DNA of 63,943 nucleotides, the filler included, from Kipferlia bialata (taxonomy: Eukaryota): NCBI GenBank assembly GCA_003568945.1. It is 3 parts of 3 records of this genome, joined end to end, with 100 filler letters (N's around TTAATTAATTAA, not from the genome) between each part and the next. Parts side by side here need not be neighbours in the genome. Positions count along the whole stretch, not along the records: positions 1 to 25,833 come from BDIP01000207.1; 2 more parts are not named here. One strand, given 5' to 3'. The notes below the pieces were generated by a model. The model made no database searches. It saw only the letters and a list, made by a program, of their open reading frames with translations, and had not been told where the DNA came from. Made by a program: the position numbers and the translations under genes. Positions 1-42,902 of this stretch are shown here, piece after piece (positions within the stretch are counted from its first letter, which is position 1; each line of letters opens with the position of its first letter).

Positions 1-87
<87 letters not shown>

Positions 88-88
88 G
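1..88. repeat. (GA)n and (TA)n microsatellites, representative of very many intronic runs in the window
   Basis: Directly visible. Similar runs occur at 6330-6372, 10306-10348, 14321-14384, 42861-42899 and 50300-50485. Confidence 0.95.
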
Positions 89-3000: not shown

Positions 3001-5862
3001 TGGTCTCAAATACAAAGTGGTGCTGGATATTAGGGGTGTAGAGAGAGAAGAGAGAGTGGTCTCAAACACAAAGTGGTGCTGGAATGAGGGGAGTAGAGAG
3101 AGAGAGAAGTTGTAACGAACCCAGTATCAGTATATAATACATATATATATAGAGAGAGAGAAAGAGAGACAGAGAGACAAGGAGAGAGGGAGAGAGGGAG
3201 AGAGAGAGGGTCTGTACATACCTCGTCCAGACAGCTGAGTCTGACGTCCATCCTGACAAGCACATCCACTGGGGGTGAGAGAATGGAGTATATATATAAT
3301 CATGAAAAGAATGTATACATGATCTCTTGTCCATCCTGACAAGCACATCCACTGGGGGTGAGGGCATAGGATAGAGCACAATAATAAAACCATTACAAAA
3401 TATGTACTTTATCACATGCCAGTAGTGCAGAATATACACACATACATATAGGATTAACACCTAACACACGTCTTCTTTAAACACAACACCCTTCTATATC
3501 TTACACTTGCTCATTTGCAGTACAAAACTGTTCACTCACCTAGCCCTGGCTGGTTGGCAATCTTGTCTGTCAGGCCCTGCCAGTGCTTCTCAGACGCAGC
3601 GGACTGGGAGACGCCTGTATGGTAAGGTATATACGTAGGAGAGAGAGAGAGAAAGAGACAGAGAGGATATGGAGGGAGGAAGAGAAAGAAATGCCACATA
3701 TACACACACTCCCCACGAGTCCTTGAAACACACAAATAGATTAATGAAACACATGTGCTTACTTATACACTCATTTCATTAAATAACTAAAGCTAAAATT
3801 ACGCTACATACATATAAACTAACCCAGTATGAGCCCCCAGACCCTTGGCATACACTACAACTAGTATGTACTCAAAGTATATCCTTACATACTCATACAT
3901 ACATATATAGATACACTAAATATACTATATATACTATATATATATACCCACCCAGTATGAGCCCCCACACCCTTGGTCTGAGAGATGATGGGATGCCCCT
4001 CTTGGCGGCATCGAGCAGGGCAGACAGGGAGGGCCTAGGGTAAGGCATAGATATATATCATAGGAGTCATATATATATAGAGAGAGAGGGAGAATATATA
4101 TATATACAATCTATATACATGATGGGATGCCCCTCTTGGCGGCATCGAGGAGNNNNNNNNNCAATCTATATACATGATGGGATGCCCCTCTTGGCGGCAT
4201 CGAGGAGGGCAGACAGGGAGGGTCTAGGGTTAGATATATATATATATATATATACATATTATATAGGAGTCATATATATAAAAATGAGGAGAGAAGGAGA
4301 GTATTGGCAGCATCGAGGAGGGCAGACAGGGAGGGTCTAGGTTTAAGTGGCAACACTGCAAGTAGACAGACATAGTTAGATATTGATAGATACAGTAGGA
4401 ACACACCAAGAAGATGACGCCACCAACCGCACACACACCTATGTATATATATATATCAATATACACACATAGAGAGAGAGAAAAAGACCTGAGACAGATA
4501 CAAAGACCTAGACGAATATATATAATTGTTGTCTTTAGCACCATAGAGAGAGAGAGAGAGAGAAAGTACCTGGACGACGATGCCACCAGTCTCCGTGTCT
4601 GTCTGAATATACATATATATATATACGTATACATTGTATACACATGAACTAATATAGTACATATACAGTATATATATATATATATATATATGTATATGTA
4701 CTTAGTACCTAGAGGATGATGCCACCAGCCGCCGTGTCTGTCGGAAGCTCTTCTCAGAGAACCATCCCAGCACAGTGTCATCAAGACCGACCTAGAGAGG
4801 TTAGGAATAGTCAACGAGAGTCTCTTATAGTCAATAAACAGACTAGAGAGGTCAGCAATAGTCAACGAGAGTCTCTTATAGTCAATTCATAGAGCATGAG
4901 AGCACCTAGCGCACATAAGTATGTCAGAATGAATACCCACTCATACATGTCAACCCATATAAATACCCATACCTGTCTGGAGTCTGGGCTGAGCTCCTTG
5001 AATACTATATAATGATATATGTATATATACATTAAAAATAAATATGGATATATGATTGTAATCCTATCATACATATGTCTGCTAGCGTACATATAATACC
5101 AGAGGTATATATACCTGTCTGGAGTCTGGGCTGAGTTCCTTGAACTCTCATTTATATTTGCATATCTACTATTCATATAGACACATGTAGTCTATTGTGA
5201 TTATATATACTAATATATATATATACATATATATATCACTGTGCCATTACCTGTCTGGAGTCTGGGCTGAGCTCCTTGAACCTGGTCACCAGGAAGGAGG
5301 GGTCCACGCACTGGTATAAGAGTGTATAAACAATATATACAATATATACATATATAATACAATGTAGTATATCTACATATGATTGTCTGGTCACCAGGAA
5401 GGAGGGGTCCACACACTGAGGAGTGAGACATGTATGGCACTTTGTATTAAATATACATATATATATATATAGTACATTGTAGTATATCTACATATGATTG
5501 TCTGGTCACCAGGAAGGAGGGGTTCACGCACTGGTGTGAGTATGATATATAGCGGGATCGAAATACTGAGGAGATATAGACATTTACCGAGCCTCATTCC
5601 AAAATTCTATAGAACTGTGCACATGAATATATATGAATATATATGAATATATATGAATATATATGAATATAGAACTGTGCACATGAATATATATTAACAC
5701 AATGAATACATATACACTCACGTGAGGTGGGACCCAGAGCTGCAAGGTGTATGATGTATATAAATATATCTCTCCCAAGAAAAATATAACTTCAGATGAT
5801 GAATATATATACAATACTCACGTGAGGTGGCACCCAGAGCTCCAGGGGAGAGGGTTTACTCC

Positions 5863-5893
<31 letters not shown>

Positions 5894-6323
5894 CAATACT
5901 CACTATATACTCATATATATATATATATATACACTCACGTGAGGTGGCACCCAGAGCTCCAAGGGAGAGGGTATACTCCCTCTCTCTCTATATATGTATA
6001 TATATACAATACTCACTATATATACATACATATACATATATACATATCTGCACATACATGTGGTGGCACCCAGAGCTCCAAGGGGGAGGGTGTGTCAACG
6101 CATGGTACCCTGGGGGTGAGACAACATAGAGAGAGAGAGAGAGACAGAGAATGGGAACATCAACTGTGGGCCCGACCTGTCGGGCCTAACTAATCACACA
6201 TATTATATACCCTATACAACTATATTTACAAATATACCTGACTGTGGGGTCTGACCCAGGTGCATATGCAGTGGGAGGGGTCACATGCCGCAGGAGACGC
6301 CTGGTATGAATATACATATATAT

Positions 6324-6375
<52 letters not shown>

Positions 6376-7544
6376 CATATGCAGTGGGAGGTGTCACGTG
6401 TCTAAGGAGACGCCTGGGGTAAGATATGTACATTGATGTTAAACTCCATGAATGTATGGATTGCTATACATGTATATTACCCTACCTCAGGTCCTCACAG
6501 TCATACACAAAGGTCTCGGTGATGCCCTCGCCTGGGGTTGGTATCTATCAATATATATATATATATATGTATATACACACATATATACATATATACACTC
6601 ATATATATAAATACATAAACTAATAAGAATACTAATATATTTAGGGTCTCAGTGATGCCCTCTGGGGTTGGCATGGTTAAAAACTATATCTATGACTGTC
6701 AATACAATCTGAATGGTGCTACATTAGAATACATTCGAGCATGTCCGTACATCTACCTATATATATATACAAATATGTAATATATATCAATATATAGTGT
6801 ATTTCATATATTACACTATATGTATATCAATATATAATACTACCTTCGAGCATGTCCCTCTGGAAGTCCTCTGGGATACAACATCAATCTATGACCCCAT
6901 AATAAATGTATTACCTTCGAGCATGTCCCTCTGGAAGTCCTCTGGGGTACCCACCAGGGGCAGGCCCAGCTGTCTCTTGACACGGTCCAGACGCTTACTA
7001 AAGGATTAGTACGGTCCAGACGCTTGCCTAGATATATTTATATATACTACATTAATATTTAGGCCCAGCTGTCTCTTGACACAGTCCACACGCTTACTAG
7101 AGGGTTAATAATAGTAGTATTATTATATACATACATACATCTGCTCACCTGATGTGTGACACATACTGACTGTGCACATCAACAAGGGCAGGGGGGCCTG
7201 AGATTAGATAAGTATAATATGTGTATATAAATGAAGTATGTATATGCCTATACACATACATATTCATTAATATATGAATACATAGAATTATATATATGCT
7301 GACTGTGCACCTCGACAAGGGCAGGGGGGCCTGATTGTAAGAGAAACATAGTATATATACATCAAGAGTGTATGTATATGTCTATACATTTATATGCTGA
7401 CTGTGCACCTCAACAAGGGGGGCCTGGTATGAGATACGACCGTATTACACAATGGAGCGTATGCGCACAAATAGTCAGATACGTGGACTAGTGATACACG
7501 AAATCTCCAGTATATGTGTCACTCTATCTCTCTCACTCATATAC

Positions 7545-7586
<42 letters not shown>

Positions 7587-8955
7587 TATCTCCCATACCT
7601 AGGTGTGGTGGATGTGGGAAGAAGTCGGCCAGCTCCTGGGGGTCAGAGATCCAATACATATGTACAATATGTATGCAGTGATAGAGAGAGAGAGAGAGAG
7701 AGAGAGATAGTGATTCATGGGGGTCAGAGGCACAAGAGTATACAGCAATGTACACGATCTACGTCTATATGTATAATACACACTACATCTAGTATATACA
7801 CTCCTATACCTCCGGCACAGCCAATTGTTTCCTGAGTGATGGGCACTTGTCAGCCACACCCAGCTGGACATCGGTGGTAAATAGACTAGGGGTTAGGGTA
7901 TACTCTATTCCAATGTTAAACAAATAGGGAAGGGGAAAGCTTGAGTTCGCAATTCTATCTCGTATCTGGTACCTTGTATTAAACAATTATTCTTTCACAA
8001 AAAGAAATCTTGTCCCTATACTATACACATCCATACCCTGGCAGGTTGACCTGTGCCACCAGACTGGGCAACCGTCTCTTGACAGTGAAGACCTACTTGT
8101 TAGAACTTTAACACATATATATTAGCTAATACAGATATGCAAGCATATATAAACACTGAGACACACATTCAACAGCCGTCTCTTGACGGTGAAGACCTAT
8201 CAGTTAGTTACATATATATATATAGGGAGAACAATCCTATCTATATACATGGTTCAATATAAATGTATAAGTCATCGGAGTAGGTCCTCATTTGACGGTA
8301 AAGACCTGATAGTGAGTATGTATATACAAAGAAACAGAGAGAAGGATTGAGAGATAGACAAGTAGCACAAAGAGACAGAACAATGGAGAGAGAGCAATCG
8401 CTACCGTCTCTTGACAGTGAAGACCTATTTGCCAGTATCATAACACAGATATATATACACATTTATAAGGGGACCTATCAGTTAGCATAGTAACACAGAT
8501 TACTGTATAGATATACAAGGGGAGAGATACTTTTGTGAGTCTCTTGACGGTGAAGACATATTATTCAGTATGTATAGGATAACCAAAATAGTGACATACC
8601 AAATAGTATATATGACGGGCTATGAAATATCAAGACACATTGAAACAGGAGAGGGCTTGTGTGTGTATGTGTCTTGTATGTGTGTGTGAGAGAGAGTGTG
8701 TGAGATAGGGAGATGTTGGTTGTGGGAGAGAGACAGATGAGTGAGAGGGAGAGAGAGATGGGACAACTGACAAGGTAGCCTGGCATACCTTCTGGTTCTG
8801 GCTCTGGACCTCGTCCTGGGGGTGAGAGGACATAGGGGTAGATAGGTATACATGTGTATGTATATATGTACAGAGAGAGAGACACTAGGGTTATTAAGAC
8901 GAAGGTTCTGGCTCTGGACCTCGTCCTGGGGGTGAGAGGAATATGAATACATTTG

Positions 8956-9005
<50 letters not shown>

Positions 9006-9389
9006 ACACATATATGTATTTACCTGGACCTCGTCCTGGGGGTGAGAGGATATAGGGGTAGATAGGTATCCATATATATATGCGGAGAGGGATAGAGAGA
9101 GAGAGAGACACTAGGGGTATGAAGAAGCTTCTGGCTCTGGACCTCGTCCTGGGGGTGAGAAGAATATATAGAAATGAGAGAGAGAGAGAATATAAACAAA
9201 AGCCTTTGGGTAGGGGAGAGAGAGACTAATAGATAAAGGCTGGGGGTGAGACTGGACAGGAAAGGTTGTATTCCCGAACCCCGAGTAATCACCACAAGCT
9301 CATATATAGGATATGTACATATACTATATACCTTGAGACTGGCCCTTATGGCCCAAAGGGTCCTGAACTCCCCGGCCTCATAGTAGTTG

Positions 9390-9394
<5 letters not shown>
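88..9394 (-). CDS. TBC1D19: TBC1D19-like Rab-GAP (TBC domain) protein, multi-exon, 3' end runs off the window
   Basis: ATG at 9394 (MDNYYEAGEFRTLWAIRASLK|gt). Hand-spliced exons give AAKRGIPSSLRPRVWGLIL (TBC GIPxxLRxxVW motif, ~3955-4035), VDVLVRMDVRLSCLDE, QHHFVFETTLDGIMCALV, YPESGIVPFKG (~1082-1115), IALYGAPLCFLYEQ (~711-755) and RVFSVLKELYVRYFSRLHRLSSE (~367-440). These follow the remembered TBC1D19 motifs (YFVFED, YPPSGVIPFHG, APLCFLY, MYVRFFFRLH) in order. Confidence 0.85.
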
Positions 9395-9431
<37 letters not shown>

Positions 9432-9864
9432 AGCTCTCAGTAAGCTCTCAGTGAGCTCTCAGAAACGCAGTTTCCCTGGCTCTCTCTCTCTCTCTGTATC
9501 ACAAAGTCTCTGAAGCAGTCAGTCTCTCTCTCCCTCTCTCTCTCTCTACTCCCTTGCCCTTCTGCCGCCCCGACCCAACCACGATACTAATACACTACAC
9601 TAAACTCTCACCACTCTCCAATGGGCCCGATACTCCACTTCTCGCCCGTTACTGTTAAGACAAGGGATAATAGAGGTAAGCGGAGGGATCACTCAAACAA
9701 GCGTTTCAGCCGTACGTTACTGAATCAAGCATTCAAAGGGTGTAGACATCCTACTCTGCTTGTCGATCCAGTGCTCTCTACTCAGTGCTCTCTACTCAGT
9801 GCTATCTACAAAAGAGCCAGTATAGAGGGAGAGGGAGACTGGGTTACAGAGAGGACAGGAACAT
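9395..9864. promoter_or_regulatory. Short divergent (head-to-head) intergenic region, putative bidirectional promoter
   Basis: About 470 bp lie between the minus-strand ATG at 9394 and a plus-strand ATG at 9865. No specific promoter motif was identified. Confidence 0.4.
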
Positions 9865-9943
9865 ATGGAGTCCCAGATCCAGGTATGAGCAAGTATATGC
9901 TGTAGCACCCTTGTAATAAGAGTATATATGCATGTCATTGCAG

Positions 9944-9982
<39 letters not shown>

Positions 9983-10303
9983 CACACACATGCAATGCTA
10001 GTAATGTGAGGGACCATACTACGTTGTTGTGTTCCTGTACACTCCACTCTCCTCTCTCCGTTTGGTATATTGTCTCTCATAATTGTTACCTGGTGACACC
10101 CCAGCATAGATCTCTCTTCATCTCTCTCTCTCTCTCTCTCTTAGGTGAAGGAGATCCCCGTATATGACCTTGCCTCCCCCGATGTGGCTGGTTCTCTCTC
10201 TCTCTTCATCTCTCTCTGTCCCTCTCTCCTACTTTCTATGTCTCACAGCTCTTTTCCTCTGTTAGGTCTCTCTCTCCCTCTCTTTCTGTCTTTTTCTCTT
10301 TCC

Positions 10304-10350
<47 letters not shown>

Positions 10351-11073
10351 CCTCTCTGCACCCTTACTCCTAGGTTCTGAGTGTTCTCCACCTGTGTCCC
10401 TCGCATGACACAGGGGATGGGAGGGAAAGGGAGAGGGAGAGAGAGAGGGAGAGAGAGAGACTGGTCAGTGGGGATGACAACACATTGGTCCACACGAATG
10501 GGGAAGGTACTTCTATTCGTGAATAATAATTGTAATATTATAGTGTGTTTATCTCCTTATCCACATGTGTTGAGACTCGTGTCCCCCACTCTCTAGTTAA
10601 TATCATATATATAAGTCCTATTCCCCAATATAGTATCCTCAATACCCAGGTATAGAGACCCGTGTCCCCCACTCCTTCTTCGAGCAATTCACGTTTAGTC
10701 ACTATTACTACGAGACATATGCATAAGATATATCATACCTGACATATAGGTACAGTGACCCGTGTCCCCCACTCCTTCTTCGAGGTTGTGACAGACCCTG
10801 AGGGTGACAGAGATGGGGATAGGGAGAGAGAGAGAGGGAGAGAGAGAGACAGACATGGGTCCAGGGCAGTGCTTGCGTCGAGTCCAGACTCACTCACAAT
10901 GCAGGTATGGGGTATGCTCATATCTCCTGTAGAGGGTGCCTAGGATTGTTCTCTCCGTCTCAATGCTACTTCCTTTACTCCTCAGATTACTGTCATTCCC
11001 GAACCATCTCTCAATTAAGCTACATATGTTATATAGTTGCAGATACTCATGTCAGAGTGCCGTCATTGCCCAG

Positions 11074-11104
<31 letters not shown>

Positions 11105-13843
11105 GTCTCTCTCTCTCTCTCATCCCTGGCTAACCCCCCAGAGTGCCGTCATTGCCCAGCTGATGCTGACCAGTACACAGCAGACAAAGAGAAGGTATAC
11201 ATATATATACATTGAATATGATTAATATGTACAAAATCATGTACATATATATATATAGTGTGTATTACTATATATGTGTGTGTGTGTGTATTATATATAG
11301 TATATATAGTATTTGATGCTGACCAGTACACAGCAGACAAAGAGAAGGTATGGGTATATAGTATATATATGCCTGTATCTAATGACATAAGGACGCGGCA
11401 GTCAAGGAGGAGGTATATACATATATCTATGACAGAGTATATTTTACTATTCAAATACTTTTACATCCCCGTCCTCAGAGACTATATATATATATATATA
11501 TATATGTAGATGAGAACGCATATATATATATATATCATTAATTCTAATATCTTCTGATACCAGCCACATTCCAGTCATCTGCCAGTTGGCCATAATACAT
11601 ACATACATACACCTATATATGTATTATATACTGTATGCTGTAGTAGTATGTATACATACAAATACTGTTCTCATACCAGTCACATCCCCGTCCTCTGCCA
11701 GTTGGCCAGAGAGGCCAAGGGGGACCAGGGGTCACTACCTATGGAGAGGTATTATGTACTATGTATACATATTGTGTACTATAATGTATATCATAGTTGT
11801 TAAATGTATGGACATCCACCGTATTCAGCCCACCTTGACAGCGCAAGGTGTATATGCATGTATATATATATGTATATATATATATATATATATTTAAGAG
11901 TATCTGCACATATGTGTGTATATGTAGATACTTTGTATTCTGATAACCACCCAACACCCTAGGCAACCCCTGTCCCACCTTGACAGGGCCAGGTGCATCG
12001 GGTGGATGTTTGGGGACATGTCCACACAGTCAGGGTATGGCTATATGTATATTATATATCTATCTGCATGTATAAATATGTATGTATGTATTGAGGGAGA
12101 GAGTAGTAGTAGTAGTAGGTATCGACTCTATGTTTGGGGACATGTCGACACAGTCAGGGTATGGAGCTATGTATGTATTCTGTATATATATGTATATAGT
12201 GAGGGCATCACATAGAACACCGCATAATTGTGTAGGAGTGTATCAGTATCAGTAGATACATTTTTCTCTTTACATATGTCTGTATATAGATTATATATAG
12301 TAGTATTGAGACGGCAGTTATTTATATGTATTTTGTGCAATATTACTAATATCCAGGTGTGGCTTCCTGCCCCGTGTTGCCAAGGCAATTAGTGTATATG
12401 TACATGTATATACATATGCCAATGTAGATCCGATGTATCATACCATTTGTATACTCAGAGTCTAGGTGTGGCTTCCTGCCTCGTGTTGCCAAGGCACTGC
12501 TACAGCTGGTATCAGAGACACAGGTATGGATGGATATATAACATGAAAGAGAGAGAGAGAGAGAGATCCTAGGTGTCAGAGACACAGGTGTGGAGACGTG
12601 GATTGATATACAGAGAGATCCACATACTGCTTGTGTGTCATTATATGCAATCTGTCCAGCTCCCATCTGTCAGGACATATACATAAATATATATACATAT
12701 GTACATATATACATACATATATATATTTGACACTGATGTCAGGACAGCAATGCCCGAGACTTCATCCACATATATATGGAATATTAATGAATAGTACATT
12801 TATACATAAATAGTGTATGAATAGAACTGAATACATACATGTGAGCTGTATACTCATTGTCAGGACAGCAATGCCCGAGACTTCATCCACATATCAGCCA
12901 TGGAGCACACAACGACAGGTATGGTTATGTAGTGTATGAGCTGAGCATTTCCCCCTATCCCTATAACATTACTGTATATGTAAATTTCATTCTATACCAA
13001 CAGTTTGTGTAAGTGCTGAACCCAGGCGTTAGGGATGTGCTGAGCATTGCCCCCTCCCCCTCCATCAGCACAGTGGCCATGGATGAGTTACAACATAGGT
13101 GGATATGGTATATATGGTATACATATGTATGCTAGTATAGGTAGTGTATGTATACCTAGTATACTACGTCCCCATCCATCAGCACAGTGGGCATGGATGA
13201 ACTGCAGCACAGGTATATAGTGTATATATACGTATATGAATATTAGGAGATGTGATGCAGCATAGGTACCATGCCTATTATATACATGTATTAGTGTTGT
13301 GTGTATAGTAATTATACTAATATTATACTAATTATACTGTACATACATACCCATCAGCACAGTGGGCATGGAGGAACTGCAGCACAGGTATGTAAGATAG
13401 TATAGGTAGTATGTATATAGATTGATAGACACATGCATGTGTAAATGCATATACCCCTCTATCTATCTATCAGCACAGTGGTCAGTGATGAGTTACAGCA
13501 CAGGTAATGTATTCTGTGAGCAAACAGAGAGTATATTTTTCATTTCATATTTATGTCTATACTCTGTCTAAGTCTGTCCGTACTGAGAGTGAGGGCATTA
13601 CATATTATAGTAATGCAATAACTATATCGAAGTACACTCAAGTATATAGTGAATAGAAATGAATATATATGTGTGTGTTCTCTTATCTGAAGGTCTGTCC
13701 GCACTGAGAGTGTGGTATATACACACATATATATATATATATGTAGCACTACTAACCTATAGGTCTGTCCGCACTGAGAGTGAGGCCATTGTGACACTCA
13801 AGTTCCTGGCACAGACACTGGCAGTCACCTGCCACGCTGCTAG
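9865..13843 (+). CDS. Multi-exon coding region resembling a degenerate N-terminal half of a kinesin motor domain (no intact P-loop); may continue in frame into the nitroreductase
   Basis: Exons: MESQIQ/VKEIPVYDLASPD/VLSVLHLCP...LVSGDDNTLVHTNGE/GTVTRVPHSFFEVV.../...ARCIGWMFGDMSTQS/GCGFLPRVAKALLQLVSETQ/DSNARDFIHISAMEHTTT/GVRDVLS...MDELQHR/SVRTESEAIVTLKFLAQTLAVTCHAAR. Phases are consistent from 10374 onward; the exon-2 donor is uncertain. The coding status is well supported, while the kinesin resemblance is by eye. Confidence 0.6.
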
Positions 13844-14318
13844 GTGTGTATCATGCAAAATAATGAGGACTTATGCACTTATTGAATATATATAAGTATA
13901 GTATACTTTACTGGCACAGACACTGGCAGTGACATGCCATGCCACAAGGTATATACCGTAGAGTATATATAGTATAATATGGATATGAGATACTAATTTA
14001 GTAGTGTAGTAGTGTATGTATTAGTAGTAGCAGCGCTATGCTGTGTTTCATTATATACACTACTGACACAGACACTGGCAGTGACATACCATGCCACTAG
14101 GAATGGGTGTATATGATGTATACAGACATAGTGTGTGTGTATGTAGTATGTATTGTAGTATAATATGTTTTATAGCATCGGCACAGACACTGGCGGTGAC
14201 ATGCCATGCCACAAGGTATATCACAGTAGTAAGTATACATATATATATATGAATGTGTGTGTACCCTCTACACCCATAATATCAGCTGCATAGAGGTCCA
14301 CCTGGGTCACCAGTGTCA

Positions 14319-14372
<54 letters not shown>

Positions 14373-14601
14373 ATCTCTCTCTCTGTATATATATGTACCA
14401 TCCAGGACGTGGGCAGGACTAGGTCAGTGATACACACACATACACACACTCTCCCTCTGTATATGTGTACATTCCATACTGACACAGGGTCAGTGATATA
14501 TTAATATGCTCTCTCCCTCTCTTTCTCCTCATATGTATATTAATGTGTTATTGTATCAATTTTATGAAATATATTTATGTACATATTTCCACTGACCCCA
14601 G

Positions 14602-14820
14602 GTCCTGTGCCACAGCAGAGGAGGTCGACGCCGTCAAGGTACAGTTGCCCCCCTCCCCTTCCAACACACACATTCTTCCGCCTTCCCATTTTCTCTCACA
14701 CCCTACCCCCATGTTCCCTCTGTCAACCGACATTTCTCTCTCTCATTTATAACCTCACTATCTCTCTTTCTCTGTCTCTTATTGCCTCAGGCCACTGCCC
14801 CTGCCATGACTGTGACTGTG

Positions 14821-14860
<40 letters not shown>

Positions 14861-16639
14861 CTCTTACCCTAGGTCACCCCTGCCATGACTGTGGCAGTGC
14901 TCACATCTCGCTTCTCATGCCGCAAGTTCAAGGTACTGTATTGATTGTAGATACATACACCCATAAATACGAAGGCCTAGTATGGGTGCGACCATTACAT
15001 GTGTCTATAATCTCACACATTCCCTGACCCCAGCCCACCCCTCCCCCCCTGGCCCTTCTCAAGGACGTGTGTGCCCTGGCCAGCTGTGCCCCGTCAGGTA
15101 TATATCATAGTATATACATAGTTATATATATACTATGTGAATAGTTTGGGTGTATATGTATATGTGTATATATATATACTACGCTGTGTGTACAATCAAT
15201 GTATATATGGGGGTATATACTAGTGTGTGCCCTGTTCCCATACCCTCCCACCCCTAGGCGCTGCCTGTGACTCCAACCTTTCGCATTGGTATATATATTG
15301 TATCATTATAGTAACCCATCTCACCCTAGGCGCTGCCTGTGACTCCAACCTCTACACCATTGTGTCCTCCCCTGAAGCAGCTGCCAGGATATCTGAGTGG
15401 TCATTCCCACCTCCCCCGCCCATGGATGCACAGAAGGTGTGTATCGGTATATATGCATCGTCTATTTATATACGTCGTCTGTATACATCTGACTCCAGGC
15501 TGCTTGGAAGGCTGCCTGGTTCACTGGCCGCACCCCTGGGTCCACCATCAACGGAGCCCCAGCATGCATCATCATATCCACACCCCCGGTGTGCCAGATA
15601 GGCATGTGCTTTTTGATATGTATGCCTACCCATTCCCTGTGTTCAAACCCTCACCCGCCAGACCCTCTGGTCACAGGCCCTTGGCCCCTACAGGATGCCT
15701 CCCTGGCCAGTGCACACCTGCAGGTATAGGTGGTATATATATTTCACTTAGAATGTATACCCATCTATGTGGGTATATGTATATGAATATATATATACAG
15801 GATCCCTCCCTGGCTAGTGGCCATCTGCAGGTATAGATAGTATTGTGCGGTGTAATATACACATATTGTCATCCCACCCTCAGATTGCTGCCTCTGGTCT
15901 GGGTCTGGCCACCTGTGAGATGTCGAGACACGCCGCATTCAACAAGGTACTCATGAGTGTGAATATATATATTATATCTCTAGAGTAATAGCATGTATAT
16001 GTAGAGGTATGTCGAGACACGCAGCATTCAACAAGGTGGGTGTATTGATGAATAAGGTGTATGGTATATAATTTGAGTCTCTATATGTATAGTCTCTCTG
16101 ACTCTAGGAAATGGCTCTGCGTGCCATGTATGGTATCCCAGAGGACCACACGGTCAGATGCCTCATATCCATCGGGTACTCGGCTGAGAGGTATGCATGT
16201 TCTGTACAGTACGTGGACAATAGTATATACGTTTAGTGTATGTGCAGATTGACCCCATCCACAGAGGCATCCAACAGTCAATGCTAGTATTATATATTTA
16301 TGGACCTTCACTATATATGTACAAATCGAGAGTGTACACATCTATGATGTATATAGCTTCTTATACCAGGCCCATCCAGAGAGACACACAACTGTCAAGG
16401 CCAATAAATTATTCGTACATGTACTACGGTATATGTATATATATTGATATATGTATATATATTGATATATGTATATGTATTGATATATGTATATATATTG
16501 ATACATGTATATATATTGATATATGTGTATATGTAATATGTGTAAATGTATATCATCTTATGTCAGGCCCATCCACCGAGGAGTGCAGCGCCACCCGCCC
16601 CACCTCAACATAGTGACAGCAGTGCCAGAGCAGGAGTAG
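14602..16639 (+). CDS. Nitroreductase-family (FMN-dependent) domain, multi-exon
   Basis: Spliced exons: VAVLTSRFSCRKFK (RxSxRxF motif, 14873-14932), PPPLALLKDVCALASCAPS/G (APS motif), APACIII, QDASLASAHLQ/IAASGLGLATCEM (A-x-x-LGLGxC motif), ALRAMYGIPEDHTVRCLISIGY (GIPExxx...IGY), then stop TAG at 16637-16639. Confidence 0.85.
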
Positions 16640-16643
16640 TAGG

Positions 16644-16676
<33 letters not shown>

Positions 16677-17058
16677 ATGTGCTGAGGACTGAACCTGTCT
16701 CCTAGCTACTCATTGTACTTCCAACCACATCAGAGTTATGCTATTGTAGGTAGTATCGATACCAAGACCAATAGACATCTGTATGTCAATTCAATCAGTA
16801 GGAGAACGGTGTTCATGTGTCTATAACCCTGAAATGGACATCAAATCTATCCATCTATTCTATGTACTGTACTATATACTGTACTATCTATCCCCCTGTC
16901 ATCCCAGCAATCTAGGAGACTGTTATCCTAACTATCCTAAGACATGATAACAATCGAGTACTGCTGAAGACTGGCAGGCACACTAACTACTACTAACTAC
17001 ACCTAAACGCCTCCCATACCCCCTCGATACTTCTAAACTCCGTCCACCCCCACAAGCC

Positions 17059-17718
17059 TCACTTTGCGCTGGCCTCTGCGACTAGGGATGCGTACTGGAG
17101 TGTGTTGACTGTCTTCTTGAGATACTCTGCTGAGGGAGAGACGTTGGACACCATGACAGTCTGGGCGTCCTTGTCCTGAAATAAGGGTGCAGAGTGAGAG
17201 AAAAAGGGTGTAGAGGTAGAGAGGGAGTATTGCTTGACATATACAGTAGGATGTCTCACCTCGAGGTACTCCCTGAGTATCTGGGTCAGCATCCATAGTC
17301 ATATTAGCACTAATAGCACAGTTAGACATATGAAGTGTAATGTCTCATACTGCTCGGTCTCACCTCGAGGTACTCCCTGAGTATCTGGGTCAGCCTGCTG
17401 TTGCGGTAGGGCACGTGGCTGGCCCCACTGGGGGTGAGACATGGACTGGTACAGGACTAGACTCACTATAGCCTGGTTGTAGGTGATACCCTACTTCTCA
17501 TAGTCTCACCTGTGTCTCCTGCGTATGCACTCCTTGAGAGCCAGCAGGGTCTTGTTGATCTCCTGACCCTCCTTCCTCTGTTGGGGGGTGAGCTGGGGGT
17601 AAGCGATGTGTAGAGATAGGGGACTAAGATATACAGAACCAGTCAGTTGTTAAAAGTGAGCTAGGGGTGAGCCATAGGTGTATAGAGTGGTATGAAATCT
17701 GACGTCCCGATAAACCTG

Positions 17719-17760
<42 letters not shown>

Positions 17761-20358
17761 CATGTAAGTGTCTTGATACCTGTCTGTCAGCTGTTGCCCC
17801 ATACTCAGCCCCGGCCAGGTCACACAGCAACAGGGTACCACCCACACTGCATCCAGCGGCACGGGACTCCTGGGGTCAGATACCATACACTGTACATAGT
17901 TTATATACATTATACCACATATGTACTACACCCAGCGGCACGAGACTCCTGGGGTCAGATACCATACAGCATATACACGCAATTATGCAGTACCACGGGA
18001 CAAATGCATTCCCACCTTGATGAGAGCTGCCTCCTGCTCCAGAAGAGAGAGAGAGAGTGATTCGATGTTGATGTCATATACATGATGGGAGGCCCTTACT
18101 ATACATAGACCCACCTTGATGAGAGCTGCCTCCTGCTCCAGTAGGGCCTCCAGCTTGACATCCTCGGCCTGGCGGATGGCCTGTAGTAAGGGAAGGTGAT
18201 ACAAATACCAGAATATGGTGTATGTAGCAATATAGATATAAGTATTCTTTGCATCTGGTACACATATACTTACCAGCAGGTTGTTGATGATGGTATATAT
18301 ATATATATATATAAATAGAGAGAGAGAGAGAGAGAGGGGTACTCCCCCACTGGGCACATACCAGCAGGTTGTTGATGATGGTCTGGTCGCACTTGGGCAC
18401 CTCATGCAGGGGGATCTTGTACCACTGGGGGGTTAGGTATATGTATATAGAGAGAGAGACAGAGACCTTGTACACATTGTCCTCCATGTCCTACATGTAT
18501 GTGAATGTGTAAATGTGTATATGTACTGTGTATGCATACTCACGTTGCCCTCCTCGTCCTGCTGCCACATACTGGCAATGGCATCCTCCACCTCTGCGAT
18601 GGCCTTGGCGGCATGCACACGGCCTGGGAGTTAGGAATATATATATATGGATAGATATATATATATTTCATGATGGTATAATAATATATATTCAATGTAT
18701 ATTTAATAAGTATACATGTGTGTGTACAACTATGTACATGTCAGAGGACCCCCCACCTGTCCTGACCACCTCCCCCTCCTGTCTCATGATGGTCTCTCGC
18801 AGGGCAACCAACTCCTTGCTCACAATCTGAAGGTCAGTATGACTACTAATGAATACTGCCAAATAGCCCCGATGTTCATGTGGTGTTCTACTAAAAATTC
18901 TGTGTATAGAATTACCAAAATTAAATATATCAGGTAGAACAGGGCGTGCGAACTGGAGGTATGTATGTGGTCATATACAATGGAATATAGCACTATATAA
19001 ACGGACAAAAACAATACCATTCCCATTCCTCCAGGTAGAGCAGGCCCATCACTTAATGACTCGTCATGAAGTTATATGTGAATACATAGAGTATATATAG
19101 AGAATAACCATAATTCAATACCTCCAGGTAGAGCAGGGCGTGTATTGTCTTAACTATATGTAGAAATAGTATACATGATGTATGGTATACATATATATAT
19201 ATATAGTAATCCCACCTCCAGGTAGAGCAGTGCGTGTGACCTGCTCGACTCATCGTGTGTCTCTGAAGAACCAACCTTCCTGACACTCATGCCCAGAGAG
19301 ACGATGGCATCGAGGCCTGGGGTGGGACATATACCTAGTGGTGGTATATATATATATATACACTCCTAAAATATGGGACACGATGGCATCAAGTTCTGGG
19401 GTGGGAGAAGCATATATATAGTGGTGGACAAATATTTATGTATATATATGTGTATTTATCATACAATATGGGAGACAATGGCATCAAGACCTGGAATGGG
19501 ACACATACATTATTACGATTATATATCATATACAAATATCAAAACCATAAAGAGTCCACAATGGCGTCAAGGCCTGGGAGGTGGTATTAACAGTAAACGA
19601 ACCCACCCACCCTACGGTGTGTCTGTGTGCAGTGTCTTCAATATAAGTATATAATATACATAGTAGATATACAGTAGATATATATGACTTGTACGTTAAT
19701 AAGCAGAGTCACCACCCCGCGTGCGCGTCTGTGTGTACACTATCCATACATATACAACAAGACACCCACCCTCCTGCGTGTCTGTGTGGAGTGTCTTGAG
19801 GGGGTTGACCGTGACACCCCCGTCCTCATGGGTCACAGTGTCGGCACGCACATAGGTCTGGGGGGTGAGACTAATTCAGTATGGTATAGTGTACCCAATA
19901 TAGTACAGTACACCGATACTGATACTGGTAGTCATAGTGATATACAGTGATACGATTCACGGGGTCAGTACGCTCATAGGTCTGGGGGGTGAGAGAGAGG
20001 GACAGCGTTACTATATTACTCCGATATTGAGAGTCCAAGGTCATGCGGAAGAGGTTGACCACCATGTATAGATCCCCTAAATTGACTAGAACACCCTATA
20101 ACGACCTTCCCGTCCTCCCCTGTTGATACACATCCACTCATATACATATATGTATGAATACATATATATACCCACCTTCCCATCCTCGCCCTGTCTAGTA
20201 TAGTCGGAATTTTACAGTATAGGATTGATATACATCCAGTATAGTACTTATAGTATTTCTATATATATATATTTATGTGTGTGTATGTATACACCCACCT
20301 TGCCGTCCTCGCCCTGTCTGACCGAGCAGAGGTGCCTGTCGTCCAGAAGGTCATAGAC
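17059..20358 (-). CDS. Kinesin motor domain, C-terminal half (kinesin-13-like), 5' part missing
   Basis: Exons: VYDLLDDRHLCSVRQGEDGK, RKVGSSETHDESSRSHALLYLE (switch I), GGTLLLCDLAGAEY (switch II variant), KEGQEINKTLLALKECIR, HVPYRNSRLTQILREYLE, QTVMVSNVSPSAEYLKKTVNTLQYASLVAEASAK*. The LLALKECIR motif is typical of kinesin-13. No P-loop exon is found before the G-run at 20508. Confidence 0.9.
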
Positions 20359-20542
20359 CTGAGGGTTAGTATGACACACACACACACATATATATACAAT
20401 ATTATACATATATCAAATATGTATACACGTCAATATATACATATGTCATCCAGAAATTCATAGACCTGGCAAGCAGAAATCTTTTAGATACAGATATATG
20501 TGTGTGTGGGGGGGGGGGGGGGAAAGTTGGGGGGTTTATATC

Positions 20543-21619
20543 CCATCACGACGATGCCATCAACCGTATGAGGCGTGGACAGCAGATCAAGCAGGACAAG
20601 ACAGAGGCCTACAAGGCATTGGGTGGGTGGAGGTGTCATGTTACACCCAAATATGTAAGCCCTCTCCCCCCTCTCCCCCTTGACCCCCAGGTGCCATCAA
20701 GCAGAAGGGAGGCGTCTCCTCCCCATCCACTGTGGACCCCTTCTCCTTTGCCACAGAGAAGAGAGCAGAGGTACCACACGAGTGTCTATTCATACTTATT
20801 ACATTATTATTGTACTCATTGTTAATGTGTATTCATTTATTCTTTATAGTTGTTTCGTATTCATAAACGGGTATGCCACCTCTGTCTCCCATGCCTGTCC
20901 CTGACCCCTAGGAGAGACAGCAGAGGCACCCCGTGCTGTGTCTCGAGGTGGCCCTGGGCAATGGCAGGGTGGGTCTGCTAGGCCTGCACAGGGGGGACGA
21001 TCCAGCCGCCGTGGTGTCCCAGTTCAGTGATCTGTACAGCCTCGGGGTCAGGGACAGAGACACCCTGCTGCAGGTGCTGCTGCAGAAGATCGAGACCCAC
21101 GTGCCGGACCACGTTGTGAATGTGAGTGGGGCTACTAGGACAGGGCACTCCACCAGACAGATGAGACAGAGCAGGGGCACACCCAAGGCTGAGGCAGAGA
21201 GGGAGAGGAGGAGAGAGAGGGCTGCCGAGGAGGCCGAGGAGGCTGAGAGGGATGCCGAGAGGGATGCCGAGAGAGCAGAGGAGGAGGACCGTGAGGTTGT
21301 GACCCCCAGACACCCTGACCCCACCCCCATGCCCCACCACACAGAGGTGGCACTGGGACAGGGGGAGAGGGAGGAGGGGGTGAGCCCAACCGCCAGGCCC
21401 CACGCCTATGCCAGTGGCCCCTCTGTGGATGACCTCGAGAGACAGGTCGAGGAGTCCATCTCCCACCTGCTGCAGAGGAGGTCGTCCCCTTCCCTACCCG
21501 CCGAGGCCACTCTGCAGGGAGAGGCAGAGGCAGATGCAGAGAGAGAGGGAGCCTGGTCCCGTCTGATGGATGAGGGCGAGAGAGACGTAGGCTCCACCAT
21601 GGATCTCCCTCTGGACTAA
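20543..21619 (+). CDS. Hypothetical protein, 3 visible exons, probably 5'-truncated
   Basis: Phase-consistent exons: HHDDAINRMRRGQQIKQDKTEAYKAL/GAIKQKGGVSSPSTVDPFSFATEKRAE/ERQQRHPVLCLEVALGNGRVGLLGLHRGDDPAAVVSQFSDLYSL..., followed by a charged tail. Stop at 21619 (ORF 20933..21619). Confidence 0.7.
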
Positions 21620-22034
21620 GAGTGACAGGGGCCGCGGGTGCATGGTATGTGGGCAGAAGGGTATGCAGCTTGTGTAGGAAAGTAGGATAGTCGCAATATG
21701 TGTGTATGATGTGTAATTGCGTTGTGGTTTGCGACATCATGTTTTGTACGAATAGATCGAGTATTATTGGAAGTCAATACTAGTTCAAGTGACGATAGTC
21801 TATTACTAATGTAATTCGACACTGCTATAACAGTCTGGCTATTGAAGCACATTAGTGGTAATGTGTTTGGATAAGAGAAGTGGTTGGTGGGAATGGTATA
21901 ATGGGAGGTATAGAGCAAAGAGTGTGGGCCATGCCTTGGGACACACTCTGACACTGCGGGGTAGATAGGCTATGACGAATCCTGCTAGAGTATTTCGTCT
22001 TAACAGTTAACGAAGAGGCACCGGGTCATGGGGC

Positions 22035-25000
22035 CTACAGTGACCCATGCACCAGCCCCGAGTGCAGCTCCTGGCAGGCCCCCACCACAGCAGTGAGGGC
22101 ATGGGTCTGGCCTCTGTCCACAGACTGGGTGGCACCCTCAGCTGTATAGGCCATGAGCTGGCACCCCTCCCCCTCCACACTCACCCACACCTCCCCCTGT
22201 GCCTGGGCCACTCGCCACTCGCCATCTCCCTCTCCCTTTGTCTTTCGGGTGTCACCCGTATCCTCCACATCCTGTCCCACCCATGTCCCCCCCTGCTTAG
22301 TCCCCACACTAATGTCCTGGGCTACTGGCGCAGGTGACCCTAGACCCATGGGGGCAGTCAGGGGCACAGACCTGGGGTGGGGTAGGGGTAGGCTATCAGG
22401 GTATAGTAGTGGGAGAGACAATTGGTGATATATATATATAAATATATACACACTACACCGACCTAGCGTATGTAGTCACTGTCTCCTGCCGCCTTCTCCT
22501 GCCGTGTCCCTCTCTGGCAGAGGCCAGTACCGCACTACCGATCCCTGATGCCGCCCTACCCTTGTACACGCTACCCCACACAGCCCCCTTGAGGGGCCCT
22601 AGCCTGTCCTTCCTCTGGGCACTCCCACTCCTATTCCTGTGGGAGTGGCTGGCGAATGTGATGGTCTCGACCAGCTCACAGGACACGGGGGCAGGGGGGA
22701 CGCAGAAGAAGGGGCATACGTTGGGGTAGCTCTCCCGCAGGGTGTCTCTCAAGGAGTTAAGGGCCATACGTAGTCTCTCACTCTCGAGTAGCAGAAGGAT
22801 CTCGACCAGGCCGTCCTCATCAACGGCCAGAGAGGGAGGGGGGGAGGGAGGGGGGGTCAGGGCATCTGCTGACTCCTCGGTCTCTGGGAGAGCGATATTG
22901 TCCACATCTTCCGGGCCGTCTCCTACCGTCCCCTTATCTTCCCCATCTTCCTGCCCTTGTGATGCTATGGCACCCTTGCCATCAATAGTGTCATCACCCT
23001 TGTCACCAGTATCTCTCTCCCCCTCCCCCCCCCTCCCCTTGCCCTTGATGGGTTGGCACAGCAGCAGAAGGGCGGCCTGGGTGTCGAAGTCCGTGTCAGG
23101 CGATGGGTTGACGCATATCAGCATACACTCCTCGTGTCTCAGCACCCGTCTCAGCTGCCCATCCCCAGGGGGGGTCACACTGCCCCCCTCCCCCTCACCA
23201 CCAGAGGTTTGGACAGACCCTCCCATAGGCGCCCTTGGCCCACCAACCTGCCCGTCCCTCCCACCGACCTCTGCGTACACAGGTCTCCAGCACACCAGGG
23301 CCCGGTTGCCTCTGTTGGTAAGGGTATAATGCATGTGAAAGATGTAACTATATATATCCTCGTGTGTCACCAGCATTGTTCACACAATATCCGCGTCACA
23401 CCTTGTGTTGCTGCCCACCAACAGACAGAGCTGAGCCACGTGGGGGGGCATGTTGGACGACACCACACGGCCCCGATACACAACAGCGGCTTGCACCTGG
23501 GGTGAGGGATGGTGATGGGCCATTATACTCTATCACGTCACACCAATCCCGTCACAATTAGTGGGACGAAGAGTCTTGATTCAAAACTGACCTTGAGTCT
23601 AGAGCTGAGGCCTGACACATGACGCAGCAGGGCATCGGCCTGGAGGGTGAGAGAGAGAGAGTGTGTCAGATAGAGGGGGAGATGTCTGCCATATGCATAC
23701 AATTATACATATTCATACATATATATTGTTATATCACATATACCACGTCTACCCACCTGCAGGAATGGGTATGATGATGCCCCTGTTCTGAGGTAGGGGG
23801 TGGACCGGATGGCCAGAGCCCTCCCGCTGTTGTCGAGTAGGTACTTATCCACGAGGGGGACAACCTCGCCTGCAGGGTGAGAGGTGAGTCATCTGGAAAC
23901 ATACATATGTATGTATGATGACCGACTGAGTAACACAACTATGCCTATGGCACCACCCACCCGATATGCTCTTGTAGCACTTGTGGGCCTCCTCCAGACC
24001 CTCATCACTCAGACCCAGCCTGGCACGGAGATGCAGGTCGGAGCCTGGGGTGAGCAAGGGGGGGGGGAGTAAGAGAGAGGATACGGGTCAATCGCCAGGG
24101 GGATGTGGCACTCTACATATGTTCCACCCTGCATATCCCATGCTACTCCAACCCCAGCATGATGCCCCACCTACCAGGAACCTGACGGCCATCACGACTA
24201 GACCGGTCAGGGCTTGTGCCTCCTGTCTAGACACAGTGCCACCCCCCTGGGCAGAGGTGTGCCTCACAAACAGATACCCCAGCCTGCCGTCCTGAGGGTA
24301 AGGGAAGCAGGGCATTAGTGGGTGGAAGTAGCATATGAGCAACTGCATCCTGTGCCGTACACTCTGCTACGCTGTAAGCATCAACACCATTAGCCCCCAT
24401 TCCCTCTGTACCCCCACCACATCGTGTGGAACAGACCCACACTGACTATATATCCACATACCTCTGCCCCAAACACAGACACCGGCCTCCCCCTGAGGGT
24501 GGCCCTGACCAGCACCACTTGCTCCTGGGGGTGGGGCATGGAAGACATAGAAGGTAGAGACACAGGGTATGTACGTTTTTACACTCATTATGTAAGCATA
24601 CAGAAACAAACATGAATACCTTGTCGAAAGGGGTGCAATCCTCAAGGCCCGACACATCTCTGAGGATGAGGATACAGAAAGTCTAACAAATATACACCCA
24701 AGTCAATGTCGGTTCAGGATCCAATGAGAACTAAATAGTTAGGTATGGGTGATACATCAACAAGTGGGGCACCTGGACACCCTGAGCAGAGCACTCAGCC
24801 TCTTGAGGATGAGGGAGGGGTGGTCGAGGGGGTCTGCCCCTGAGGGAGGGCGGTGTCTGGCCATGTCCACAGCCACAGGGTCAGACATGTCGCTGGGTGA
24901 GACAAGCGGGGGGGGGGGGGGGGGGGGGGGGGAGGGGGAGGGATACCTGGGGGTGAGATACAGGGGACATACATATACATATACATATGACATCGCCCGG

Positions 25001-25039
25001 AAGGGTGGAGGGGGGCATGCGGTATCTGGAGGTGAGAGC

Positions 25040-25071
<32 letters not shown>

Positions 25072-25633
25072 AAGAGGAAGGAACCACTGCATCTGCCCTA
25101 CCTCAGCAGCTGGTGCGTCACACTCAACAGGAAGTACCCGTCCTGGGGTCAGAGAAGGGGAGAGGAATTGAGATACAACCAGAAGGATATATATTCATCA
25201 TTGGGGCGGTACTGAGTGGGACTGGACACAGTAACACATGTATAATTATGTACATATGTATAGCACACACCTGGTGCAGTGGAGGTGCCATGTATGGGAG
25301 GGATGTGGGGTGTGGTGTGCTCTCCCCTGCACCAAAGAAGGTGAGCAGTCTGAGGCCACCCTCTCTGATAGAGGGAGCATCACTGAGGAGCTGGGGTGAG
25401 AAAATGACATACTTTTGCATATCTGAAGAGAGAGTGTGTGTGGGTGTGTGTGAAGCCACTCTCTCTGATAGAAGGGGTATCACTAAGGAACAACAGTTAG
25501 CGACCAGAGTATATGGATATGAAACTGCATCGAAACACAGAGGGAGAGAGAGTACCTGCCCCATTGACACCATCAGGCGCCAGTATCAATTATTAATAAT
25601 ATCAGAGACAAGGGTATGTGAATACATATATGA

Positions 25634-25668
<35 letters not shown>

Positions 25669-25767
25669 CATATATATATATATACATTCATACTACCTGC
25701 CCCATTGACACCATGAGGTATCTCAGTGAGTGAAGCATCACATTCTCAGTCACACTCCGGTCAAGGC
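22035..25767 (-). CDS. Hypothetical multi-exon protein, 5' end lost in the gap
   Basis: GC-rich exons with canonical GT/AG, for example GLDRSVTENVMLHSLRYLMVSMGQ, LLSDAPSIREGGLRLLTFF, DGRLGYLFVRHTS, VQAAVVYRGRVVSSNMPPHVAQL. There is a long exon at ~22475-23310 and a last exon ending LVHGSL* at 22035. Confidence 0.7.
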
Positions 25768-25833
25768 CTGGGTATGAGTGATATACACACACACATATAC
25801 ATATATATATATATAGAGAGAGAGAGAGAGGGA

Positions 25834-25933
25834 NNNNNNNNNNNNNNNNNNNNNNNNNNNNNNNNNNNNNNNNNNNNTTAATTAATTAANNNNNNNNNNN
25901 NNNNNNNNNNNNNNNNNNNNNNNNNNNNNNNNN
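25834..25933. other. Assembly gap containing artificial TTAATTAATTAA linker (25878-25889)
   Basis: 44 N + TTAATTAATTAA + 44 N. The linker has stops in all six frames, which is a standard contig-joining spacer. Confidence 0.95.
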
Positions 25934-28058: not shown

Positions 28059-28312
28059 CTGAAGTACAAAGAGAACATAGTAGCCAAGAATACAGTATCA
28101 GTAAGTTAGAGGGTATGGTCATCTGGAGTCAGAGTCGACGTGGGAAGAGGCAACACTTGTGGTATTTGGGGGGTACTTGTAGCACAAGAAGAATGACACT
28201 GACCAACTAGATTTACCCTTTTACAAAGGGGGAGAGGAAGGATGGGAAGGAGACGGGGGGGGGGGGGGGGGGGGGGGGGAAATATGCATATATATATGAA
28301 GACTGGACTCAC

Positions 28313-42856: not shown

Positions 42857-42902
<46 letters not shown>

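What the first reader, a model, noticed from the sequence alone, without database searches (positions are those of the whole stretch)
13026..14215. Donor-side echoes in two consecutive exons, recoded next to the splice site and near-identical towards the exon interior
Seen: exon 13026-13098 ends GCC ATG GAT GAG TTA CAA CAT AG|gtgg. The echo at 13175-13212 ends GGC ATG GAT GAA CTG CAG CAC AG|gtat (4 synonymous codons, 1 A->G), with further echoes at 13351-13387 and 13469-13503. The next exon ends GTC ACC TGC CAC GCT GCT AG|gtgt (13843). Echoes at 13911-13948 and 14180-14215 end GTG ACA TGC CAT GCC ACA AG|gtat (4 synonymous, 1 A->T); the copy at 14063-14100 is more decayed. A 16-20 nt internal stretch is near-identical, the differences cluster at the donor, and the echoes carry the more common GTAT donor. 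Inference: the shared stretch could serve as a crossover or pointer that lets an alternative exon end replace the resident one.
Basis: partly seen in the sequence, partly recalled or inferred. Interest (0 to 1): 0.8.

Follow-up and report, generated by a model that had tools for sequence, protein, structure and literature searches.

The report
Exon-end echoes stacked in Kipferlia introns
In this stretch of the genome of the free-living flagellate Kipferlia bialata, about 40% of modelled introns hold short copies of the neighbouring exon end with its splice site, and the copies differ from the exon mainly by silent changes, so they are likely leftover working versions from diverged alleles, a possible record of gene exchange in this protist.

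Summary
The organism is Kipferlia bialata. In 188 modelled introns, 76 carry 'echoes': median 29-nt copies of the adjacent exon end plus splice site, about 104 nt apart. There are 131 echoes in 90 families, 45 donor-side and 45 acceptor-side. They are not plain decaying duplicates. Echo-versus-exon pN/pS is 0.24 (bootstrap 0.18-0.32) against 0.50 expected for a neutral copy. Echo splice signals differ in sequence yet still fit the consensus, and flanking intron DNA is mostly unalignable. Divergence doubles towards the splice site. Best reading (0.5, inferred): each echo is a formerly working exon-intron junction from a diverged allele, stacked by mis-repaired or unequal recombination confined to short exons. 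That echoes still replace the resident end in mRNA is untested: no reads were available. The 'GTAT donor' preference is local only. Nine literature searches found no description. The scan noted a similar junction-duplication pattern in a sea urchin gene (e1-7787398); that note, as listed, mentions no coding signature.

The parts
13026..13098 (+). Resident exon (73 nt) of a modelled ~24-exon gene at about 9865-16613; one late exon resembles nitroreductases only weakly
   Evidence: Gene model; PDB search of exon 16108-16188 E 0.25 and 1.4
12936..12962 (+). Decayed upstream (acceptor-side) echo of the 5' half of exon 13026-13098; dropped from the counts because it does not reach the splice site
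13099..13168 (+). Spacer after the resident donor (GTGG); contains an in-frame stop at 13133
13169..13212 (+). Donor echo 1 (SISTVGMDELQH, then AG|GTAT)
13351..13387 (+). Donor echo 2 (ISTVGMEELQH, then AG|GTAT)
13466..13503 (+). Donor echo 3 (SISTVVSDELQH, then AG|GTAA); shares GAG TTA with the resident and CAG CAC with echoes 1-2
13572..13599 (+). Acceptor echo of exon 13763-13843, acceptor damaged
13693..13715 (+). Acceptor echo of exon 13763-13843 with AG at 13691-13692
13763..13843 (+). Resident exon (81 nt)
13908..13948 (+). Donor echo (LAQTLAVTCHAT, then AG|GTAT)
14063..14100 (+). Donor echo, decayed: GT lost, two extra amino-acid changes
14180..14215 (+). Donor echo; related to the 13908 copy into the start of its spacer (87% over 79 nt)
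1..63943 (.). Window-wide set: 131 echoes in 90 families in 9 of 11 modelled genes, on both strands and in all three linker-separated pieces (47, 33 and 10 families)

Best explanation
The echoes are copies of exon ends with their splice sites lying in the adjacent introns, and they are likely formerly working exon-intron junctions from diverged alleles that were stacked in tandem by imprecise recombination. Inferred steps: (1) alleles of this species differ by about 0.2 per synonymous site and have introns too different to pair, so homologous repair and crossing-over can only use the short exons; (2) a break inside a short exon is repaired by copying about 100 nt (exon end, splice site, start of intron) from a sister or another allele, and the copy is joined back without full annealing, which leaves two exon ends in tandem; only products whose second breakpoint falls in the intron survive; (3) once an echo of 20 nt or more exists, unequal crossover between an echo and another allele's resident end adds or removes units, so the splice-side part of an echo comes from a working allele while the inner part matches the resident; (4) the spliceosome uses the outermost sites, and the echoes then decay neutrally.
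For: pN/pS 0.24, family bootstrap 0.18-0.32, 0 of 3000 resamples at or above 0.5; simulated neutral-echo null median 0.50 (95% 0.38-0.72) against 0.20 for nearest echoes only; 0.24 without the two families of the finding. It is 0.24 when stratified by 12 mutation types, and about 2.0 in the two wrong frames. The kinesin gene, whose frame Pfam supports in 4 of 11 exons tested, gives 12 synonymous to 3 non-synonymous changes. Changes private to an echo are also synonymous-biased (38 S, 37 N, 21 S expected). Echo codons are nearly as preferred as resident codons (mean log2 0.10 against 0.85 if only the echo mutated). In 50 acceptor echoes differing at 5 or more of 14 positions, a branch-point motif stands in 24 (residents 27, decay expectation 4.1); donors behave likewise, 43 of 50 above the decay expectation. 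Intron sides exceed background similarity in only 35 of 131 echoes and are clearly homologous in 11 of 90 families. Gradient P<1/600. Length mode 20-39 nt. No echo at 37 ends of exons of 140 nt or more, against 87 of 267 ends of 40-139 nt exons. Metamonads lack NHEJ and rely on HR and alternative end joining (PMC8516963). Crossovers favour exons in a hypervariable fungus (PMC4209137 abstract).
Against: No second allele or isolate was seen. The one gene checked gave a single Kipferlia hit in a cluster of one. My search on ploidy or sex in Kipferlia returned nothing on this species. In the 15 pairs with homologous spacers the intron side diverges no faster than the exon side, so unalignable spacers beside near-perfect echoes need abrupt intron turnover or much deeper alleles, neither shown. 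Breakpoints coincide within families (26 of 41 within 3 nt, 24% by chance), yet half of those pairs share no junction sequence. Echoes with an intact GT/AG have lower pN than broken ones (0.033 versus 0.080 after dropping 6 nt, P=0.001), which fits ageing but also ongoing use. Exon models are my own predictions without RNA support, and a few are visibly wrong.
Confidence: 0.5

Rival explanations
1. Echoes are live alternative exon ends. The shared inner stretch lets the cell jump from resident to echo, by frequent DNA pop-out or by an RNA-level template switch, so echo ends and splice sites are translated often enough to stay under selection.
For: Low pN/pS, valid splice signals, inner identity and the 20-nt length floor; intact echoes have pN/pS 0.14 and broken ones 0.47 before trimming.
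Against: After dropping the 6 splice-proximal bases the S:N contrast between intact and broken echoes is not significant (P=0.07) and pS rises with pN as ageing predicts. Non-synonymous divergence is not lower near the splice site, where a swap would expose it most (0.038, 0.032, 0.021 outwards to inwards). Inference: heritable collapse frequent enough to be selected on would erase single echoes (61 of 90 families) before they diverged. The annotated protein uses resident copies.
Confidence: 0.15
2. No alleles are needed: active splice junctions are rewritten within one lineage by error-prone repair, selection keeps silent rewrites, and the old junction is pushed into the intron.
For: Where all echoes differ from the resident, pN/pS is 0.11 (27 S, 8 N); divergence peaks on both sides of the junction in young pairs (0.12 and 0.16 against about 0.04-0.12).
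Against: The nearest echo is not closer to the resident than the farthest (10, 8, 10 ties). Changes private to a nearer echo while a farther echo keeps the resident state are still synonymous-biased (21 S, 18 N, 11.4 S expected). New valid branch points would have to arise de novo.
Confidence: 0.15
3. Plain neutral tandem duplicates of about 100 nt that survive because one breakpoint lies in the intron.
For: Geometry (donor echoes after, acceptor echoes before the exon; 45:45), sharp breakpoints (24.5% identity beyond them) and some young arrays with homologous spacers. This likely founds many arrays.
Against: Predicts pN/pS of 0.5 or more and decayed splice signals, both rejected. Intron-only repeats were found in 1 of 30 echo-free introns of 130 nt or more.
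Confidence: 0.08
4. Echoes are microexons or alternative splice sites used by ordinary splicing.
For: Echo sites often score as well as resident sites (33 of 63 donors, 28 of 69 acceptors). The three echoes at 13175-13503 could be read as in-frame 30-nt microexons.
Against: Only 32 of 131 have a usable partner site, 13 in frame, and the other 99 still show pN/pS 0.27. Direct use of the echo site keeps frame without a stop in only 11 of 131.
Confidence: 0.06
5. Assembly artefact: haplotypes or strains placed in tandem.
For: Two arrays contain Ns (4153-4161; 44883), so a few perfect copies may be artefacts. No reads could be checked.
Against: Spacer-to-echo junctions are unique sequence with no overlap that a graph could follow; up to six copies with private decay; found in all three pieces of the window.
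Confidence: 0.05

Closest known systems
Tandem or internal genomic duplication across exon-intron borders (intron gain by tandem genomic duplication, PMC3443670 passages; junction echoes in a sea urchin gene, scan note e1-7787398)
   Same: Short head-to-tail copies that include a splice site; survivors leave the coding sequence intact.
   Different: Here no new intron is created, 40% of modelled introns are affected, copies differ like coding sequence, and the intron parts are mostly unrelated yet carry valid signals.
Tandem duplications from aborted SDSA finished by polymerase-theta or alternative end joining (PMC8654963 abstract; PMC8951532 passages)
   Same: A copying tract joined back to the other break end gives a tandem duplication; fornicates lack NHEJ (PMC8516963).
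   Different: Shown in animal repair mutants or reporter assays; here the template would often be a diverged allele, and the enzymes were not checked in Kipferlia.
Exon-confined crossing-over in hypervariable Schizophyllum commune (PMC4209137 abstract)
   Same: Recombination between 14%-diverged genotypes uses conserved exons.
   Different: The abstract reports no stacked exon-end copies; hyperdiversity is not shown for Kipferlia.
Ciliate MDS pointers and IES excision (recalled, no call)
   Same: Direct repeats flank AT-rich spacers.
   Different: Repeats here are imperfect and end at spliceosomal sites, the spacers can leave as intron, and no germline-soma split is known to me in fornicates.
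Introners (PMC9860276, search listing and start of abstract only)
   Same: Mass change of intron content.
   Different: Spacers form no repeat family in the window and the duplicated part is the gene's own exon end.

Membership tests
Neutral junction-spanning tandem duplication | Head-to-tail local copy including exon end and splice site | tested here: met
Neutral junction-spanning tandem duplication | Intron part duplicated together with the exon part | tested here: not met
   Clearly homologous in 11 of 90 families; above background in 35 of 131 echoes
Neutral junction-spanning tandem duplication | Copy decays without regard to codon position (pN/pS of 0.5 or more) | tested here: not met
   0.24, bootstrap 0.18-0.32
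Intron gain by tandem genomic duplication | Duplicated AGGT used as donor and acceptor of a new intron | tested here: not met
   No AG or GT motif at the inner echo junctions
Mutually exclusive or tandem microexons | Each copy has both an acceptor and a donor and keeps frame | tested here: not met
   32 of 131 with both sites, 13 in frame
Mutually exclusive or tandem microexons | Inclusion in mRNA | not testable with these tools
Pointer-guided DNA elimination (ciliate type) | A second, rearranged DNA form lacking spacer and one repeat | not testable with these tools
   No reads and no whole genome
Introners | Families of similar intron sequences at unrelated sites | tested here: inconclusive
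   None in self-blastn of 64 kb; the rest of the genome was not available
Inter-allelic unequal recombination | Echo matches the resident junction of another allele | not testable with these tools
   No second allele or isolate; single hit

The most novel reading that the evidence does not exclude
Echoes are a reserve of swappable exon ends still in use: 20-40 nt of shared exon sequence guides a DNA pop-out or an RNA-level jump that brings the echo's splice site and codons into the message. This would be a pointer-like system in a non-ciliate protist acting on a large share of its introns.
Probability: 0.13. Interest if true: 0.92.

Novelty: new variant of a known kind. Interest (0 to 1): 0.68.

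Why it matters
If the best reading holds, one genome stores a record of former alleles in its introns, and that would be indirect evidence for gene exchange between strongly diverged lineages in a free-living fornicate. It would also show a route of intron growth: echo units make up 39% of modelled intron bases and occur in 66 of 82 introns of 170 nt or more. Whatever the origin, the spliceosome here must skip near-perfect decoy sites in their own exon context and take the first donor but the last acceptor. That points to exon definition in a short-intron protist with a reduced spliceosome (87 of 174 proteins, PMC6679479 passages). Gene finders read echoes as microexons (my first model did), so annotation of this species may be affected.

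Tried and rejected
No whole genome was held and no sequencing reads could be examined, so mRNA use and assembly are unchecked. Protein searches with the finding gene's exons found nothing, so its published model could not be compared. Pfam found nothing for its exons (two queries were in the wrong frame and were redone). The unmasked gene finder called echoes as exons; I masked non-resident copies by hand classification and reran, leaving 52000-54700 unmodelled. Rejected: the GTAT preference as a general rule; whole-exon insertion into its own middle, because donor and acceptor echoes do not co-occur on exons beyond chance (P=0.41), although they tile short exons (8 of 14 within 12 nt, P=0.009, probably because echo length scales with exon length); a single divergence class, since mismatch dispersion is 1.7, between binomial (1) and steady ageing (2.1-3.9); mutation-spectrum bias. 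Gene conversion between echo and resident alone would drive pN/pS towards 1, not down (my inference). Amino-acid changes are only slightly more conservative than random (BLOSUM -0.29 +/- 0.18 against -0.58), which is uninformative.

Full report
Observation. Both exons also have acceptor-side echoes upstream. A self-comparison showed the same pattern throughout the window. A long exon elsewhere in the window is 100% identical over 73% of the query to Kipferlia bialata KIPB_001484, which names the organism. No whole genome was held and no reads could be examined.

Catalogue. I built exon models with a self-trained gene finder after masking the non-resident copies, classified by hand (11 genes, 188 introns; 52000-54700 left out). 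I then aligned every exon end to its neighbouring intron. Of 153 hits, 21 were dropped as too short, too weak or not reaching the splice site, and one more at a 12-nt offset, leaving 131 echoes in 90 families; searches also drop three from a poly-GAG exon. Families are 45 donor-side (always after the exon) and 45 acceptor-side (always before it). Median length is 29 nt, median identity 93% and median period 104 nt. 76 of 188 introns carry an echo, as do 66 of 82 introns of 170 nt or more; echo units make up 39% of intron bases, while an intron-only repeat was found in 1 of 30 long echo-free introns.

Coding signature. A neutral copy beside a constrained exon should show pN/pS of about 0.5. The observed value is 0.24 (166 synonymous of 277 differences; bootstrap 0.18-0.32, simulated null 0.38-0.72). 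It is unchanged without the finding's two families or under 12-type and CpG stratification, and it inverts to about 2 in the wrong frames. It lies below 0.5 in 8 of 9 genes, including the kinesin gene whose frame Pfam supports in 4 exons; the ninth gave 0.53 on 9 changes. Changes private to one echo are also biased (0.36-0.40), and echo codons are nearly as preferred as resident ones.

Splicing signature. Echo splice signals have changed in sequence but still fit the consensus: a branch-point motif stands in 24 of 50 diverged acceptor echoes against 4.1 expected from decay. The intron DNA beyond is mostly unalignable, even beside perfect 30-38 nt echoes; it is clearly homologous in 11 of 90 families. 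In the finding, spacer pairs score 16-42 against a background 99th percentile of 45, and cross-family pairs score as high as within-family pairs, although blastn links the 13908 and 14180 copies into their spacers.

Geometry. Third-position divergence falls from 0.21 at the splice site to 0.11 inwards (0 of 600 simulations as extreme). Echoes of 20-39 nt are about three times as common per bin as those of 5-19 nt, though short ones are harder to detect. None occurs at 37 ends of exons of 140 nt or more; within one gene the counts are 0 of 18 against 24 of 94. Breakpoints are sharp and cluster within families.

Use. Direct splicing to an echo site would keep frame without a stop in 11 of 131 cases, and only 13 of 131 could be in-frame microexons. 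The one annotated protein retrieved uses the first donor copy and the last acceptor copy; that is a prediction from a pipeline with transcript hints (PMC5874029 passages), not a read-level test. The finding gene's own product was not found.

Mechanism. Shown: echo and resident carry the marks of having each evolved as a working exon end and splice site. Inferred: the simplest way for two such versions to evolve apart is on different alleles. Metamonads lack NHEJ and depend on HR and alternative end joining (PMC8516963 section 8). Aborted SDSA finished by end joining makes tandem duplications in worms (PMC8654963 abstract). Crossovers concentrate in exons when alleles are very divergent (PMC4209137 abstract). 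I therefore propose founding duplications from breaks in short exons, then unequal crossover in the shared stretch, which places another allele's splice-side end and intron start behind the echo. That gives the gradient, the unrelated but valid intron ends and the length floor. Intact echoes have pN near 0.03 and pS near 0.21, so most would be young deposits of older divergence. Against this: no allele was seen, young pairs do not show faster intron divergence, and lower pN in intact echoes also fits ongoing use.

Literature. Nine searches (listings and abstract starts) found no description of this pattern in Kipferlia or elsewhere; the library lacks most subscription journals. I saw passages of PMC5874029, PMC6679479, PMC8951532 and PMC3443670, passages and section 8 of PMC8516963, and the abstracts of PMC4209137 and PMC8654963. 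No supplements were read; those of PMC5874029 and PMC8516963 may bear on intron structure and repair genes in this species. Ciliate pointers and the TBC motif are recalled. The scan's note e1-7787398 reports junction duplications in one sea urchin gene; I did not check it.

Verdict. Real, pervasive in this window and not explained by neutral duplication; a new variant of junction-spanning duplication. Interest 0.68.

Noticed in passing
window 25834-25933 and 51643-51742: Two 100-nt N linkers with a central TTAATTAATTAA; the window may be three joined pieces. Echoes occur in all three.
   Followed up: partly
window 4153-4161 and 44883: Ns inside echo arrays flanked by near-identical copies; these few copies may be assembly artefacts.
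   Followed up: no
window-wide acceptors: A branch-point-like motif lies 1-6 nt before the terminal YAG in 27 of 50 resident acceptors tested; such fused 3' ends are recalled from Giardia and Trichomonas.
   Followed up: partly
window 17059-20358 (-): Kinesin motor gene; four exons match PF00225 in order, each below the curated cut-off.
   Followed up: partly
window 315-9394 (-): Multi-exon gene that looks like a TBC/Rab-GAP protein by a recalled motif only; Pfam gave no such hit on single exons. It has the densest echoes, 21 of 40 ends.
   Followed up: partly
window 28309-47068 (-): Very large Ser/Thr/Val-rich gene with a 3.6-kb open frame (34742-38353); only a weak FAP42_B2 match (E 0.04).
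   Followed up: no
window 25930-28100 (-) and 20568-21619 (+): Two modelled genes without any echo.
   Followed up: no
window 58579-59055: Five acceptor echoes with homologous spacers whose exon parts differ almost only at synonymous sites, some shared with the resident, which suggests conversion among copies.
   Followed up: partly
window 48953-49012 (-) and echo 48757-48791: Exon part differs at 7 of 33 bases while the intron part is nearly identical, the reverse of the usual pattern.
   Followed up: no
window 14791-14822 and 6645-6662: Acceptor echoes that appear to differ from the resident by a 3-nt, frame-keeping indel next to their own AG (read by eye).
   Followed up: no
window 51798-52098 and 54191-54501: Two segments 76% identical over 325 nt, probably paralogous coding sequence.
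   Followed up: no
window 4792-4886, 48265-48403, 58426-58574: Intron-only tandem repeats, rare compared with exon echoes.
   Followed up: partly
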